Assembly (NCBI RefSeq): GCF_003334315.1
Contig: NZ_QOWR01000008.1
Direction: 5' to 3' (one strand)
DNA from: Escherichia coli
Lineage (GTDB): Bacteria; Pseudomonadota; Gammaproteobacteria; Enterobacterales; Enterobacteriaceae
DNA: 64,000 nt
Shown here in pieces: positions 2,468-60,116 of this stretch. Position 1 is the first letter of the stretch; every line of letters starts with the position of its first letter. A program made the translations under genes and the position numbers. The notes beneath the pieces are model-generated. The model worked only from the letters and a program-made list of their open reading frames with translations, was not told the DNA's origin and searched no databases.

Positions 2468-5792
<3,325 letters not shown>

Positions 5793-14465: not shown

Positions 14466-14552
14466 AAATCCCGACCCTGAGGGGGTCGGGATGAAACTTG
14501 CTTAAGCAAGAAGCACTTAAAAAATTCGTTACACCAGGAAATCTGATGTGTT
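14466..14552 (-). ncRNA. dsrA: DsrA small regulatory RNA
   Basis: reverse complement reads AACACATCAGATTTCCTGGTGTAACGAATTTTTTAAGTGCTTCTTGCTTAAGCAAGTTTCATCCCGACCCCCTCAGGGTCGGGATTT with terminal hairpin and U-tract. Confidence 0.9.
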
Positions 14553-32757: not shown

Positions 32758-32847
32758 TGGCGGAGAGAGGGGGATTTGAACCCCCGGTAGAGTTGCCCCT
32801 ACTCCGGTTTTCGAGACCGGTCCGTTCAGCCGCTCCGGCATCTCTCC
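32758..32847 (-). tRNA. serU: tRNA-Ser (anticodon CGA)
   Basis: reverse complement folds as Ser tRNA with long variable arm, anticodon loop CU-CGA-AA, 3' CCA. Confidence 0.9.
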
Positions 32848-33838: not shown

Positions 33839-33914
33839 TCCTCTGTAGTTCAGTCGGTAGAACGGCGGACTGTTAATCCGTATGTCACTGGTTCGAGTCC
33901 AGTCAGAGGAGCCA
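33839..33914 (+). tRNA. asnT: tRNA-Asn (GUU)
   Basis: TCCTCTGTAGTTCAGTCGGTAGAACGGCGGACTGTTAATCCG...GAGCCA, 76 nt. Confidence 0.95.
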
Positions 33915-34227
33915 AATTCTAAAAATTCGCTTTTTTAGCGCAATGTTACTGACCTTAGTTGAACATTGTTTTTTAACGGATAGCGGGTTTTTAACATCTT
34001 AAGCGCCCTCGACCTTTATGGTTGAGGGCGTTTTGCTATGAACGCCATCACCATTTTCCCCTCGATTATAAAACTTGAGTTATTCAGTAGTCTCCCCTCT
34101 TGCAACTCACACCCAAAACTGCCTAACGAAAAGTTATTAATTTTCAATCATATTGCTATCAGGATTTACATTTTTTCGCTGTGCTAGAAAGGGCGCATTT
34201 ATGTTAGCTCGTTCAGGGAAGGTAAGC

Positions 34228-41304
<7,077 letters not shown>

Positions 41305-47319: not shown

Positions 47320-47395
47320 TGGCTCCTCTGACTGGACTCGAACCAGTGACATACGGATTAACAGTCCGCCGTTCTACCGACTGAACTACAGAGGA
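47320..47395 (-). tRNA. asnW: tRNA-Asn (GUU)
   Basis: exact reverse complement of the asnT sequence. Confidence 0.95.
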
Positions 47396-49143: not shown

Positions 49144-49219
49144 TCCTCTGTAGTTCAGTCGGTAGAACGGCGGACTGTTAATCCGTATGTCACTGGTTCG
49201 AGTCCAGTCAGAGGAGCCA
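49144..49219 (+). tRNA. asnU: tRNA-Asn (GUU)
   Basis: identical to asnT sequence. Confidence 0.95.
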
Positions 49220-51552: not shown

Positions 51553-51628
51553 TCCTCTGTAGTTCAGTCGGTAGAACGGCGGACTGTTAATCCGTATGTC
51601 ACTGGTTCGAGTCCAGTCAGAGGAGCCA
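51553..51628 (+). tRNA. asnV: tRNA-Asn (GUU)
   Basis: identical to asnT sequence. Confidence 0.95.
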
Positions 51629-55057: not shown

Positions 55058-56539
55058 ACCGACTCCTGATTCAAATGTATGATGGTATTCATTGAACAGA
55101 ACAATGGATCCCCCACCGTTGCTGACCGCAAAACATTTACGCGATTAATACTGCGCGTAATATAATTAAAAATCCAGCATTCTCAATCCATTACGAAATA
55201 AGATGGCATTACGGAATAGCCAGACTTTCTCGTGTTAACGTCCGACAAAATGTGTCATTGACAGCGGTTTCTGTGGATTGACACATTTCATTCAGATAAT
55301 GAATTAATGCTACTGCCGGACCAACCAGCAAACGGGCATTGTGTTCTGAAATCCAGGCTATTGATTCAACGTCAGCAACAGATCTGCGCTGTAAAAGAAC
55401 TTGTAAAACAACGCAATAGAATTATCCGGAATGGTGGCGACTATGCACTAGAACACCACAATTTCGCTCTCTCGGTAAGGCACTGTCACAGCATTCAACA
55501 GAATGTGACTTGCCAGATTTATTAGCGCCACCAGATGTTTAACCGGGTAACCACGACCCAGTCGGGGATATATTCCATCTTCTCGCTGACATCATCAAGA
55601 ATAAAAAGGTTTATCACACTCAGAGCAACGTTCTTCAGCAGGCGGGATAATTCTTCAACATTTAGAAGATGTGTTATTAAAGGCATACAAACTGGACGTA
55701 TTGTATTTTCTTTTGGTGGTTGACCTAAGGTAGCAGTTTATCCTGATGCGCTGAGATTTCTGTAATATCTACGTCAACATTCTCCTCGAATAGAAAATGC
55801 AGCCCCGGCAAGTGATTCACATTTTTTAACAAAACGTTGTTAGCGTGCCATTTTCAGAAGCTCTCCAAGAAAGCGAATTCTTTTCTCAAATTCTGCATTC
55901 TCAGACACAGCTTTCTACTCCATGGCAATGGCCCAAATACGAAGTTGCTCAGGATCATTAGTGGTGCTGAGAAGTTAAATAACCATGCGGAGTACCACTC
56001 GTCATCACGTATTTATATATCATGAAGCTATTGTTGTGTTTTGTACATCAGTAGATGTATTCTGATATACTCCTTTTGCTAGACATAACCTTTCACCTGC
56101 TTGCAAAGCTTCTGTGTTCTGACATTGCCAAATTGTTGCAATTCTGTATCCAGCCTTCTTTCAGTCATAGCTTCGGGCCGCGATAAGACTCACTGATCTG
56201 ACCCTGATTCCTCTTGCAGACTTTATAGACCAATTAAAATGCAGTTTCTGCAGGTCAACGTCTGACCATCATTGTCATCACTCTGGCCATTAGAGTAACC
56301 TTCTGCATTCATCCTTTTGTAAAAAGTTTATAGACTGGCCCCCTGAATCTCCAGACAACCAATATCACTTAAATAAGTGATAGTCCTGATACAAGTTTTT
56401 AGAGTAGTCATTAGTGAACAGATAATTGTTAACTTAGAACCAGTAAAATGCAAACGACGCACCACGCTGGGAAAATCGCTGCTATTCAGCAGAGTTTTGT
56501 ACCGAGAATTGTGGCCAGCCACTTATTGCTCTCGCGTAA

Positions 56540-56999
56540 GCAGGTATCCCCATCGTTTACCAGTCCAGCACATCTTGTGGTCAGGCAGAAGAAGAGCAAA
56601 CTGTTACTGGACTCACTGCATGCATGGTGGAGAAAAATGCCACGCTATCCAAAAATCCAGACTGGGAGAATGGTTCAGCTGTGTACTGAATCAGTGGGGC
56701 GCACTCTGTTATTACAGTGTTGACGGTCAGGCGGAGGCAGACATAATGCCGCGGAAAAAGCCCTTTGTGCCATCTGTCTCGGAAATAAAAACTTTATGTT
56801 CTTCGGCGGCGAGCGCAGTGCACTGTTGTATGGGCTTATCGGCACTTGCCTTCTGAACGACATTGATCCGGAAGCGTATCTGCGCCATATCCTGAGCGTA
56901 CTGCCGGAATAACCTTCCAACCGTATTGATGAACTCCTGCCATGGAACGTAGTTCTCACCAATAAATAAGCATCAATATGATTCTCCATTAACGCTTAC
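56540..56999 (+). pseudogene. IS66-family transposase (TnpC-like) 3' remnant with terminal inverted repeat
   Basis: shifted frames encode ...FGGERSALLYGLIGTCLLNDIDPEAYLRHILSVLPE... and ...ELLPWNVVLTNK*, typical IS66 TnpC C-terminus; downstream TGATTCTCCATTAACGCTTAC looks like IS66 IR; left boundary uncertain. Confidence 0.55.
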
Positions 57000-57107: not shown

Positions 57108-58322
57108 ATGAAATTTGAACGCCATCATGAAATATTGAAACGACTCAGTAAATTCGGTTCTGTAAAAGTATCCGATCTGTCCAATAGCCTCAATGTAACG
57201 AAAGAAACTATTCGTTCAGATCTTAATGAACTTGCCAGGCTTGGCTATCTGACTCGATGTCATGGCGGTGCTTTTATCGTCCTAGACTCGCTTGATACTA
57301 TTGCGAAAAATGAAATCGCTTATGCGCTTGAAAATTATGATACAGCCCAGGGAATAAAAAAAGGCCACTCAACTATGAAAAGTCAAGTATGCGTTATTGG
57401 TTCGTTTAATGTTGATATCATCAGTTATTTGCCGAGGCTTCCCACTATCGGAGAATCGCTTCTGGCAAGTAATTTTATATTTTCACCGGGGGGAAAAGGC
57501 TGTAACCAGGCGCTGGCAGCAAGCTTTGCCGATACTGATGTTTATTTCATAACAAAAGTAGGTACAGATCACTTTAGTGATTATGCGATCAACTTTATGA
57601 ATTCGTCTAAGATTTATAAAAGTATAATTTATCAAACGAAAGAAACGCAAACCGGAACTGCCACGATCCTTGTTAATGAAGGTACTGGCGATAATGTTAT
57701 TGCGATCTATCCCGGTGCCAACATGACAATGTCGTCCGATGAAATAACTATTCAGAAAGAAGCGATTATTAATTCTGATGTCATACTTCTGCAGCTCGAA
57801 ACAAATTATACCGCTCTGCAACAAGCGATCACATTGGCGCAAAAAAACAGTATCCCGGTCATTATTAACCCGGCACCCTATAATGATATCGTCAACGAAC
57901 TTATTCAGGATGTTGATTATATCACCCCCAATGAAACAGAAGCTGGTTTACTGTCCGGCATAGACGTACACGATCTTGAATCAGCTAAACGAGCTGCAGA
58001 AGCTATCCACAATAAAGGGGTAAAAAACACGGTTATCACGCTCGGTAGCAAGGGCTCGCTCGCATTTGATGGCAAAAAATTCATTCATTCGCCAGCGTTT
58101 CCAGCGGTCGTTAAAAATACGGCAGGAGCCGGGGATGCGTTTAACGGCTCTCTGGCATCAGGACTTGCGAAAGGAAAATCACTGGAATCAGCACTGTGTT
58201 ATGCCAGCGCCTTTGCATCCCTAGCGGTGGAGACAAGCAATGCTTCCGACATGCCTGAACATGAATCTGTGATACATCGAATTCAGAGTATACATTATCA
58301 GCAAACTATTTTTACGCATTAA
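57108..58322 (+). CDS. fusion protein: N-terminal DeoR-type HTH plus PfkB-family (ribokinase-like) sugar kinase
   Basis: N-terminus HEILKRLSKFGSVKVSDLSNSLNVTKETIRSDLNEL (DeoR HTH); kinase motifs SPGGKGCNQALAA and NTAGAGDAFNG; low GC. Confidence 0.7.
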   Translation: MKFERHHEILKRLSKFGSVKVSDLSNSLNVTKETIRSDLNELARLGYLTRCHGGAFIVLDSLDTIAKNEIAYALENYDTAQGIKKGHSTMKSQVCVIGSFNVDIISYLPRLPTIGESLLASNFIFSPGGKGCNQALAASFADTDVYFITKVGTDHFSDYAINFMNSSKIYKSIIYQTKETQTGTATILVNEGTGDNVIAIYPGANMTMSSDEITIQKEAIINSDVILLQLETNYTALQQAITLAQKNSIPVIINPAPYNDIVNELIQDVDYITPNETEAGLLSGIDVHDLESAKRAAEAIHNKGVKNTVITLGSKGSLAFDGKKFIHSPAFPAVVKNTAGAGDAFNGSLASGLAKGKSLESALCYASAFASLAVETSNASDMPEHESVIHRIQSIHYQQTIFTH

Positions 58323-58335
58323 GAAGGGACAGAGA

Positions 58336-59094
58336 ATGAATAACACCAAAAAATCACTAAAAGTGCTCTTTATTGGGGAATCCTGGCATATTCATATGAT
58401 TCATTCAAAAGGATATGACAGTTTTACCTCAAGTAAATATGAAGAAGGTGCGACCTGGTTACTCCAGTGTCTGAAAAATAGTCAGGTAGATGTCACCTAT
58501 ATGCCAGCACATACGGTACAAATTGCCTTCCCTGAAGATGTGGCACAGTTAGAACAATATGATGCCATCGTTATTAGTGATATTGGTAGTAATACTTTCC
58601 TGCTACAAAATGATACTTTTTATCAGCTTCGCATAAAACCAAACGCTCTCGAACTGATTAAAGAATATGTGAATAACGGTGGTGGGTTATTGATGATTGG
58701 CGGCTATCTCTCATTCATGGGAATTGAAGCAAAAGCCAATTATAAAAATACAGTTCTGGCTGATGTGCTCCCGGTTACGATGTTAGATGGTGACGATCGT
58801 GTCGAAAAACCAGAGGGTGTTATTGCACAGCCATCACAACCTGAACATCCAGTTATTAAAGGGTTCTCTGAATATCCTTTTTTCCTAGGTTATAACCGGG
58901 CGATCGCTAAAGAAAATGCTGAGGTGGTATTAACAATAAACAACGCTCCATTACTGGTCTTTGGTAACTATCACAACGGGAAAATAGCCTGCTTTATGAG
59001 TGACTGTTCACCGCACTGGGGTACACAGCAGTTTATGTCCTGGCCGTTCTATACCGCGTTGTGGGTAAATATACTGACTCATATTGCAAGATAA
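58336..59094 (+). CDS. hypothetical cytoplasmic protein, possibly ThuA/class-I glutamine-amidotransferase-like fold
   Basis: 252-aa ORF 14 bp after kinase gene on same strand; fold assignment is a weak impression only. Confidence 0.5.
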   Translation: MNNTKKSLKVLFIGESWHIHMIHSKGYDSFTSSKYEEGATWLLQCLKNSQVDVTYMPAHTVQIAFPEDVAQLEQYDAIVISDIGSNTFLLQNDTFYQLRIKPNALELIKEYVNNGGGLLMIGGYLSFMGIEAKANYKNTVLADVLPVTMLDGDDRVEKPEGVIAQPSQPEHPVIKGFSEYPFFLGYNRAIAKENAEVVLTINNAPLLVFGNYHNGKIACFMSDCSPHWGTQQFMSWPFYTALWVNILTHIAR

Positions 59095-59150
59095 TAATAA
59101 TAATGAGGTAACTCCAGTTACTCCATTTACTATAATAGAAGGATTGATGT

Positions 59151-60116
59151 ATGAAAAAGAATAAGTACTCAACTCCCTTATGGATGCTTGCCACGATTCT
59201 TGCGGGTATGCTCTCCCCTATGCAATCAGCGGTGAATGGTCAATTAGGTCACTGGTTACAGGATGGTAATGCATGCGCAGTTATCTCCTTTGCCAGTGGT
59301 TTAGTCGTGATGTTTTTTATTATTATGGCGCGAAAAGAAACCCGGCAACAATTTGCGGCAATTCCTTCTCTGATTAAAAACCGAAAAGTTTCTCTCTGGA
59401 ACTGGTTTGCCGGTCTCTGTGGAGCGATGGTGGTATTTTCTGAAGGCGCATCAGCCAGCGCACTCGGGGTCGCAACGTTTCAAACCGCACTGATCTCCGC
59501 GCTATTGCTGTCTGGTTTACTTTGCGATCGCTTTGGTATCGGTGTCGACGAGAAAAAATACTTTACCCCTTATCGCATCATCGGTGCATTATTTGCGGTT
59601 ATTGCTACGATTTTTGTTGTGTCACCTCAGTGGCATTCTACCTCTTTCATCTTACTTGCCATTCTTCCGTTCTTAGCTGGTTTGCTTGCAGGATGGCAGC
59701 CCGCTGGAAATGCAAAAGTAGCTGAAGCTACGGGATCCATGCTGGTTTCAATCACCTAGAATTTCATCGTTGGATTTTGTGTTTTAGGCACAGCGCTAGC
59801 TATTCGTGTCGCATTAGGGCACGTCACTGTTCAATTACCAGATGTCTGGTGGATGTATCTTGGCGGCCCGCTTGGACTAATGTCTATCGGTTTAATGGCC
59901 ATTTTGGTCAGAGGTCTGGGGTTACTGATGCTGGGGGTTGCTTCAACGGCGGGCCAGTTACTGGGATCAGTATTGATTGACGTATTAATTCCATCGCTGG
60001 GCAATAGCGTTTATCTGGTCACGATCATCGGAACACTGTTTGCACTGGTCGGTGCAATTGTTACCACTATTCCGGAATACAGAACCTCGAAAACAATGAA
60101 GAAAATGGAGGTATAA
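59151..60116 (+). pseudogene. YdcZ/DUF606-like DMT-superfamily inner membrane protein interrupted by in-frame TAG
   Basis: ORFs 59151..59759 and 59853..60116 share one frame; the 31 codons between them have no other stop; both halves hydrophobic; N-terminus SPMQSAVNGQLGHWL resembles YdcZ. Confidence 0.55.

What the first reader, a model, noticed from the sequence alone, without database searches (positions are those of the whole stretch)
59757..59759. In-frame amber codon splitting a YdcZ-like tandem membrane protein
ORFs 59151..59759 and 59853..60116 are in the same frame and separated only by TAG at 59757..59759; the intervening 31 codons are open and hydrophobic. Read through, they give a roughly 320-aa two-domain DUF606-type transporter. 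This is a recent nonsense mutation, a sequencing error, or a split protein whose second half reinitiates at 59853.
Basis: seen in the sequence. Interest (0 to 1): 0.45.

Follow-up and report, generated by a model that had tools for sequence, protein, structure and literature searches.

The report
Known nonsense pseudogene of a transporter
A single G-to-A change has turned an invariant tryptophan codon into a stop codon in an uncharacterised E. coli membrane transporter gene; about 30% of the E. coli genomes that carry this gene share the dead allele, which public annotation already flags as a pseudogene, so it is ordinary gene decay.

Summary
TAG at 59757-59759 is the only interruption of a 321-codon frame (59151-60116) that encodes a two-domain DMT_YdcZ/DUF606 transporter, the E. 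coli orthologue of Salmonella STM3549.

The stop is a TGG(Trp203)->TAG transition. Trp203 is invariant in 22 full-length homologues from Enterobacterales to Lactobacillaceae and Bifidobacterium. It sits in the conserved motif TGSMLVSITWNFIVGF at the start of the seventh membrane helix.

It is not a sequencing error. The exact 61-mer with TAG is in 600 complete E. coli genome records and the TGG version is in 1428. NCBI's PGAP annotation pipeline already labels the TAG allele "DMT family transporter, pseudogene, internal stop".

It is not a strain-private event. The TAG haplotype is shared by ATCC 8739, E. coli C, O104:H4 and others.

A split protein is implausible:
- The break lies inside domain 2, not at the domain boundary.
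- The 31 codons between TAG and the next start (ATG 59853) would be lost.
- That ATG has no properly spaced ribosome-binding site.
- No homologue is split at this point.

Other lineages inactivate the same gene differently: Gln25->TAA in 41 records, and an IS1 truncation in one sampled strain. The surrounding island is full of gene fragments.

Verdict: an ordinary, already annotated nonsense pseudogene. Interest is low.

The parts
59151..60116 (+). Pseudogene of a two-domain DMT_YdcZ (DUF606) transporter, orthologue of Salmonella STM3549; 321 codons with one internal stop
   Evidence: frame; two PF04657 domains; 92-93% identity to Salmonella and Citrobacter 323-aa proteins; PGAP: pseudogene, internal stop; paper naming STM3549
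59757..59759 (+). Amber codon TAG, derived from TGG (Trp203) by a G->A transition at 59758
   Evidence: TGG in IHE3034, EC05, DA33133; also TGG in ST131 and O103:H2; TAG in ATCC 8739, O104:H4, E. coli C, FY10; W invariant in 22 full-length homologues; 600 TAG vs 1428 TGG records
59760..59852 (+). 31 codons with no in-frame ATG, GTG or TTG start; they encode most of predicted helix 7, including the conserved NFIVGF motif. They would be untranslated in any termination/reinitiation scheme
59853..60116 (+). 87-codon 3' remnant (predicted helices 8-10). Its ATG has only a GGUGG directly abutting the start (spacing 0, -4.3 kcal/mol), so it is not a credible start site
57108..58322 (+). rikA orthologue (DeoR-HTH + PfkB ribokinase, STM3547), first gene of the cluster; intact here
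58336..59094 (+). GATase1-like protein (STM3548 orthologue); intact here
60119..61153 (+). Phosphotriesterase-related protein (STM3550 orthologue); intact. Its GGAGG ribosome-binding site lies in the last codons of the transporter gene

Best explanation
The gene at 59151-60116 is an inactivated (pseudogenised) copy of the E. coli STM3549-type transporter, a 10-helix protein made of two DMT_YdcZ/DUF606 repeats. A G->A transition at 59758 converted the invariant Trp203 codon TGG to the amber stop TAG. Translation ends after helix 6 and the first residues of helix 7, giving a 202-aa fragment that lacks helices 7-10 and cannot form the two-repeat transporter. The allele arose once within E. coli, sits on one nearly uniform haplotype, and now occurs in about 29% of the genomes that carry the locus. 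It is one of several independent lesions in a decaying accessory island next to cobUST. Shown: the mutation, its ancestral state, its frequency, the invariance of the residue, and its pseudogene annotation. Inferred: loss of transport function and relaxed selection on the locus.
For: Sequence and frame. Two PF04657 domains, the second spanning the stop. TGG at the same codon in five other E. coli haplotypes. The 61-mer with TAG is exact in 600 records and the TGG version in 1428, out of 2039. The same 29:71 ratio appears in independent protein clusters: the 202-aa cluster P0110 has 685 members and the 321-aa cluster P0001 has 1648. W203 is invariant in 22 full-length homologues at 63-98% identity, inside the conserved TGSMLVSITWNFIVGF motif. 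PGAP flags the gene as a pseudogene with an internal stop in AHM9C68I, 720632, ATCC 8739 and O104:H4. Independent lesions hit the same gene elsewhere: Gln25 CAA->TAA in IHE3034/NU14-type strains (41 records) and an IS1 insertion removing the 5' end in DA33133. The neighbourhood consists of an IS66 fragment, a ggt fragment and an ISL3 transposase with an internal stop. The TAG haplotype also carries T286S, and in this window's sub-lineage P81S, at positions conserved in Enterobacterales.
Against: Apart from the TAG, the reading frame is otherwise undamaged in the four cleanly assembled TAG genomes sampled besides the window and the identical AHM9C68I (no extra stops or frameshifts). A strict neutral-decay view might have predicted more lesions, but the haplotype is so young (<=7 differences in 4 kb) that this carries no weight. 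No expression, proteomic or transport data exist for this gene in any species, so loss of function is inferred from architecture only. Low-level natural UAG read-through cannot be excluded.
Confidence: 0.93

Rival explanations
1. Split transporter: the 202-aa N-terminal fragment and an 87-aa C-terminal fragment reinitiated at ATG 59853 are both made and assemble into a working transporter.
For: The downstream frame is still open and the 87-codon ORF starts with ATG. The DUF606 family does include natural two-gene heterodimeric forms (PMC3962082). From my own knowledge, some polytopic transporters tolerate being expressed as two fragments.
Against: Natural DUF606 pairs split between the two 5-helix domains (about residue 155-168 here), whereas this break is at residue 203, inside domain 2. 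Residues 203-234, including the nearly invariant WNFIVGF and most of helix 7, would be absent from both fragments, leaving 9 helices with an odd-number topology problem. There is no in-frame start between TAG and 59853. The SD-like GGUGG abuts the ATG with spacing 0 at -4.3 kcal/mol, versus -5.5 to -10.6 kcal/mol with 4-7 nt spacing for the four real starts. No homologue among 120 listed is naturally split here; the only 202-aa entry is this same E. coli allele.
Confidence: 0.02
2. Sequencing or assembly error: the real genome has a sense codon here.
For: Single-base errors occur. Some long-read assemblies of this very locus do show homopolymer indels (E. coli C, FY10).
Against: The identical TAG-containing 61-mer occurs in 600 independent complete-genome records from many laboratories and platforms. 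It also occurs in 685 member sequences of the truncated protein cluster. The change is a substitution outside any homopolymer.
Confidence: 0.01
3. Functional read-through: the amber codon is decoded (suppressor tRNA or context-dependent read-through), giving a full-length protein at useful levels.
For: The frame downstream is intact in the sampled TAG genomes. From my own knowledge, UAG termination in E. coli is leaky at a low level.
Against: The one classical suppressor locus inside the window, serU tRNA-Ser, has its wild-type CGA anticodon. From my own knowledge, natural E. coli isolates do not normally carry amber suppressors, and E. coli has no dedicated UAG-decoding system. No stimulatory structure or motif is evident, and the ancestral codon is plainly TGG, which makes this a mutation and not a conserved recoding site.
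Confidence: 0.02
4. Adaptive loss: inactivating the transporter is beneficial (for example if it imports a harmful compound), so the TAG allele and the independent Q25* and IS1 lesions were positively selected and did not merely drift.
For: There are three independent inactivating lesions in one 966-bp gene. The TAG haplotype reaches 29% frequency across diverse strains with very low internal diversity, which resembles a sweep or recombinational spread.
Against: About 70% of the records with the locus keep the TGG codon; 41 of those carry Q25* instead. Neighbouring genes also carry lesions in some haplotypes, and the island is littered with IS remnants, which points to general relaxation. The polymorphism counts are too small to test selection. 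The sample of complete genomes is clonally biased.
Confidence: 0.1

Closest known systems
Salmonella enterica STM3549 (uncharacterised DMT family transporter in the rikA-stm3548-stm3549-stm3550 cluster; McCormick et al. 2026, PMC13432705)
   Same: 92% amino-acid identity over the full length (P0005). Same four-gene neighbourhood of rikA, GATase-like, DMT and phosphotriesterase-like genes.
   Different: The Salmonella gene is intact at 323 aa. The window copy carries Trp203->amber and is a pseudogene. It lies in an IS-ridden island next to cobUST.
Intact E. coli alleles WP_000739825.1 and WP_000739817.1 (321 aa; EC05, O103:H2, ST131)
   Same: 99% identical DNA, same locus, same operon.
   Different: They have TGG at codon 203, Thr286 instead of Ser, and Pro81 instead of Ser.
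DUF606 / DMT_YdcZ family (PF04657), including E. coli YdcZ and the homodimeric, heterodimeric and fused forms analysed by Lolkema et al. 2008 (cited in PMC3962082)
   Same: Two PF04657 repeats in one chain, which is the 'fused two-domain' class of the family.
   Different: Natural two-gene members are split at the domain boundary. Here the interruption is a stop codon about 35 residues into the second repeat.

Membership tests
DMT_YdcZ / DUF606 (PF04657), fused two-domain class | Two tandem PF04657 domains of about 140 residues in one reading frame | tested here: met
   hmmscan: residues 10-154 (E 3.7e-29) and 169-303 (E 4.1e-15), both covering model positions 1-2 to 139 of 140
DMT_YdcZ / DUF606 (PF04657), fused two-domain class | About ten hydrophobic helices (5+5) | tested here: inconclusive
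   Kyte-Doolittle hydropathy shows strong hydrophobic stretches across both halves, but a 19-residue window does not resolve all ten helices. No dedicated topology predictor was available.
Orthologue of Salmonella STM3549 | High full-length identity and conserved rikA/GATase-like/DMT/phosphotriesterase-like neighbourhood | tested here: met
   92% identity at 100% coverage to the Salmonella protein cluster P0005. Gene order matches the paper's description.
Nonsense pseudogene | Premature stop at a codon that is a sense codon in close and distant homologues | tested here: met
   TGG in five E. coli haplotypes. W in 22 of 22 full-length homologues.
Nonsense pseudogene | The stop is real, not an assembly artefact | tested here: met
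   Exact 61-mer in 600 complete-genome records. A 202-aa cluster with 685 member sequences.
Nonsense pseudogene | Loss of protein function | not testable with these tools
   Inferred from the loss of 119 of 321 residues (helices 7-10). No functional assay exists for this family.
Naturally split (two-gene) DUF606 heterodimer | Break at the inter-domain boundary, each gene with its own start and ribosome-binding site, and the arrangement conserved in homologues | tested here: not met
   The break is at residue 203, inside domain 2 (169-303). The next start is 31 codons downstream, with zero-spacing GGUGG. Homologues are single chains.
Programmed stop-codon read-through / recoding site | Stop codon conserved among homologues at the recoding position | tested here: not met
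   All homologues and 70% of E. coli alleles have Trp/TGG there.

The most novel reading that the evidence does not exclude
The amber allele, together with the independent Gln25->ochre allele and the IS1 truncation, could reflect repeated positive selection for losing this unknown-substrate transporter in some E. coli lineages. That would make it adaptive gene loss spread by recombination and not neutral decay. It would also give a genetic handle on what the uncharacterised rikA-STM3550 pathway imports.
Probability: 0.1. Interest if true: 0.35.

Novelty: already known. Interest (0 to 1): 0.08.

Why it matters
It matters little beyond correct annotation. This strain, like roughly 30% of the E. 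coli that carry the locus, cannot make the STM3549-type transporter. Whatever substrate the rikA-STM3548-STM3549-STM3550 cluster handles is therefore probably not taken up by this route in these strains. For anyone characterising that orphan pathway, the natural TAG and TGG alleles, plus Q25* and the IS1 truncation, provide ready-made near-isogenic comparisons. Strains such as ST131, with all four genes intact, are the ones to use.

Tried and rejected
- Sequencing error: rejected by the population counts.
- Split protein or reinitiation: rejected on the domain position, the missing helix 7, the lack of any start before 59853 and the poor ribosome-binding site.
- Natural two-gene architecture in homologues: searched 120 homologues and aligned 22 full-length ones, and found none split here. 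The literature says DUF606 pairs split at the domain boundary.
- Amber suppression: the only suppressor-capable tRNA locus in the window, serU, is wild type. The rest of the genome could not be scanned.
- Selection test: counting synonymous versus non-synonymous polymorphic codons in the four genes gave about 1:1 counts in all of them, with numbers too small to distinguish relaxed from purifying selection.
- NCBIfam: no model matches the transporter or the GATase-like protein.
- Literature search for STM3549: returned only the 2026 rikA paper, which reports no functional data for it.
- Multi-frameshift annotations in E. coli C and FY10: some of the indels lie in homopolymer runs (for example the G run ending at 57488), so they may be long-read assembly errors. 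I did not count them as independent lesions.

Full report
**The observation.** The window has an ATG at 59151, an in-frame TAG at 59757-59759, then 31 open codons, an ATG at 59853 and a TAA at 60114-60116, all in one frame. Reading through the TAG gives a 321-residue protein. Pfam finds two colinear DMT_YdcZ (PF04657, formerly DUF606) domains in it, at residues 10-154 (E 3.7e-29) and 169-303 (E 4.1e-15). The second domain spans the stop, so the two ORFs are parts of one gene and not a chance alignment of frames.

**What the locus is.** The window is Escherichia coli chromosome. It carries dsrA, rseX, four tRNA-Asn genes and serU. The region upstream of the finding matches cobUST in annotated genomes.

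The gene belongs to a four-gene cluster:
- a DeoR-HTH/PfkB kinase (57108-58322);
- a GATase1-like protein (58336-59094);
- the transporter (59151-60116);
- a phosphotriesterase-related protein (60119-61153).

This cluster is the counterpart of Salmonella STM3547-STM3550. STM3547 was recently characterised as the ribokinase RikA. The same paper states that nothing is known about STM3548-3550 beyond their predicted classes and a crystal structure of STM3548 (PMC13432705). The Salmonella and Citrobacter transporters are 92-93% identical to the window's read-through product.

In E. coli the cluster lies in an accessory island present in about 2040-2125 of 5426 complete genomes. It is flanked by an IS66 fragment, a ggt fragment and an ISL3 transposase that itself has an internal stop.

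**The mutation.** At the same codon, IHE3034, EC05, DA33133, ST131 strain 751 and O103:H2 all have TGG. The window, AHM9C68I, 720632, ATCC 8739, O104:H4, E. coli C and FY10 have TAG. So the lesion is a G->A transition at 59758.

In an alignment of 22 full-length homologues at 63-98% identity, the residue is Trp in every one. These range from Citrobacter, Salmonella, Klebsiella, Proteus and Pectobacterium to Anaerobiospirillum, Bifidobacterium and several Lactobacillaceae. The residue sits in the strongly conserved stretch TGSMLVSITWNFIVGF. Hydropathy places it at the beginning of the hydrophobic segment after the QPAGN loop, which is the seventh helix of a 5+5 architecture.

**Frequency, and why this is not an error.**
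- A 61-base probe centred on the codon matches exactly in 600 complete-genome records when it carries TAG.
- It matches exactly in 1428 records when it carries TGG, out of 2039 records with the site.
- An independent protein collection gives the same ratio. The 202-aa truncated product is a cluster of 685 member sequences, and the 321-aa intact product is a cluster of 1648.
- NCBI's PGAP annotation pipeline labels the TAG allele "DMT family transporter", pseudogene, "internal stop", in every TAG genome inspected.

The stop is therefore real and already recorded in public annotation.

**Age.** Across the 4046-bp cluster, the TAG-bearing genomes that are free of indels differ from the window by at most 7 substitutions. 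The TGG haplotypes differ by 22-35 positions. The allele thus arose once, on one haplotype, fairly recently in E. coli history. It is nevertheless now shared by very different strains, including ATCC 8739, E. coli C, O104:H4 and several STEC isolates. "Recent nonsense mutation" holds on an evolutionary scale, but the mutation is not private to this isolate.

The TAG haplotype also carries Thr286->Ser. The window's sub-lineage additionally has Pro81->Ser. Both are at positions conserved among Enterobacterales. This fits relaxed constraint, but the numbers are too small to prove it.

**Other lesions at the locus.**
- IHE3034 and NU14-type strains keep TGG but have Gln25 CAA->TAA at another invariant residue; 41 records carry it. 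PGAP there simply calls a shorter 294-aa protein.
- DA33133 has an IS1 insertion that removed rikA, the GATase-like gene and the first codons of the transporter.
- EC05 and O103:H2 keep the transporter intact but have CAG->TAG at rikA codon 81.
- ST131 strain 751 has all four genes intact.

The overall picture is an accessory cluster breaking in different places in different lineages.

**The split-protein idea.** The DUF606 family does include natural two-gene heterodimers (Lolkema et al. 2008, as summarised in PMC3962082), but those are split between the two five-helix domains. Four points argue against a split here:
- The break is at residue 203, about 35 residues into domain 2.
- There is no ATG, GTG or TTG in frame between the TAG and 59853. 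Any reinitiated product would lack residues 203-234, including the nearly invariant WNFIVGF motif and most of helix 7.
- The only SD-like element before 59853 is GGUGG directly abutting the ATG (spacing 0, -4.3 kcal/mol). The four genuine starts of the cluster have -5.5 to -10.6 kcal/mol at 4-7 nt spacing.
- None of the homologues retrieved is split at this point.

I consider this model very unlikely.

**Read-through.** The site is not a conserved recoding site, because the ancestral and majority state is a sense codon. The one classical amber-suppressor locus inside the window, serU, has its wild-type CGA anticodon. The rest of the genome could not be examined. From general knowledge, natural isolates do not carry amber suppressors, and spontaneous UAG read-through is low.

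**Likely consequence (inferred).** Translation stops after helix 6 and a few residues of helix 7. The 202-residue fragment retains an intact first DUF606 repeat but lacks most of the second, so the antiparallel two-repeat transporter cannot form. About 360 nt of untranslated mRNA then precede the phosphotriesterase-like gene, whose GGAGG ribosome-binding site lies in the last codons of the transporter. Some polarity on that gene is possible but untested.

**Verdict.** This is an ordinary nonsense pseudogene of an uncharacterised transporter. It is polymorphic within E. coli and already flagged in RefSeq. The only mildly interesting residue is the parallel inactivation (W203*, Q25*, IS1). That could indicate selection for loss instead of drift, but the present data cannot test it.

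Noticed in passing
window 57108-58322 (+): The rikA orthologue encodes a DeoR/AgaR-type HTH at residues 3-61 fused to the PfkB kinase. The 2026 Salmonella paper reports that the enzyme is translated from Met90. In the EC05/O103:H2 haplotype, the 'internal stop' that makes PGAP call rikA a pseudogene is CAG->TAG at codon 81. That is upstream of Met90, so the kinase may still be made there.
   Followed up: partly
window 57483-57488 (+): A G6 run inside rikA is one G shorter in IHE3034, E. coli C and FY10, giving a 'frameshifted' rikA. It could be a real slippage hotspot or a homopolymer sequencing error.
   Followed up: no
window 58336-60116; loci L012 4172-7110 and L014 4061-7223: The GATase1-like (PF07090) + two-domain DMT_YdcZ gene pair is conserved in Lentilactobacillus and Bifidobacterium, with the transporter at 64-67% identity to E. 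coli, which is unusually high across phyla. In those genomes it is followed by a CBAH-family amidase (PF02275) and accompanied by a LacI regulator, instead of rikA and the phosphotriesterase-like gene. This suggests a mobile two-gene uptake/processing core for an unknown, possibly amide-containing, substrate.
   Followed up: partly
window 60119-61153 (+): The phosphotriesterase-related gene is intact (1035 nt, no stop) in all 11 E. coli loci sampled. This includes those where rikA, the GATase-like gene or the transporter are broken or deleted.
   Followed up: partly
L003 (IHE3034) 5496-5498, equivalent to window 59223-59225: There is a second, independent nonsense allele of the same transporter, Gln25 CAA->TAA, in 41 records including IHE3034 and NU14. 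PGAP does not flag it as a pseudogene there and annotates a 294-aa N-terminally shortened protein instead.
   Followed up: yes
window 61193-63184 (-) and about 56377-56856 (+): The cluster is flanked by decayed mobile-element debris: a gamma-glutamyltransferase fragment, an ISL3-family transposase with an internal stop, and an IS66 transposase fragment. This arrangement is conserved in most E. coli genomes inspected that carry the island.
   Followed up: partly
window 32758-32847 (-), 33839-33914 (+), 47320-47395 (-), 49144-49219 (+), 51553-51628 (+): serU tRNA-Ser(CGA) has its wild-type anticodon, so it is not the supD amber suppressor. There are also four tRNA-Asn(GTT) copies with equal Rfam scores. 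DsrA (14466-14552, -) and RseX (22917-23006, +) sRNAs lie upstream.
   Followed up: no
window 34153-41304 (+): A 2383-aa ORF lies among the tRNA-Asn genes. From memory of the K-12 map this is the position of yeeJ (inverse autotransporter adhesin). I did not examine it.
   Followed up: no
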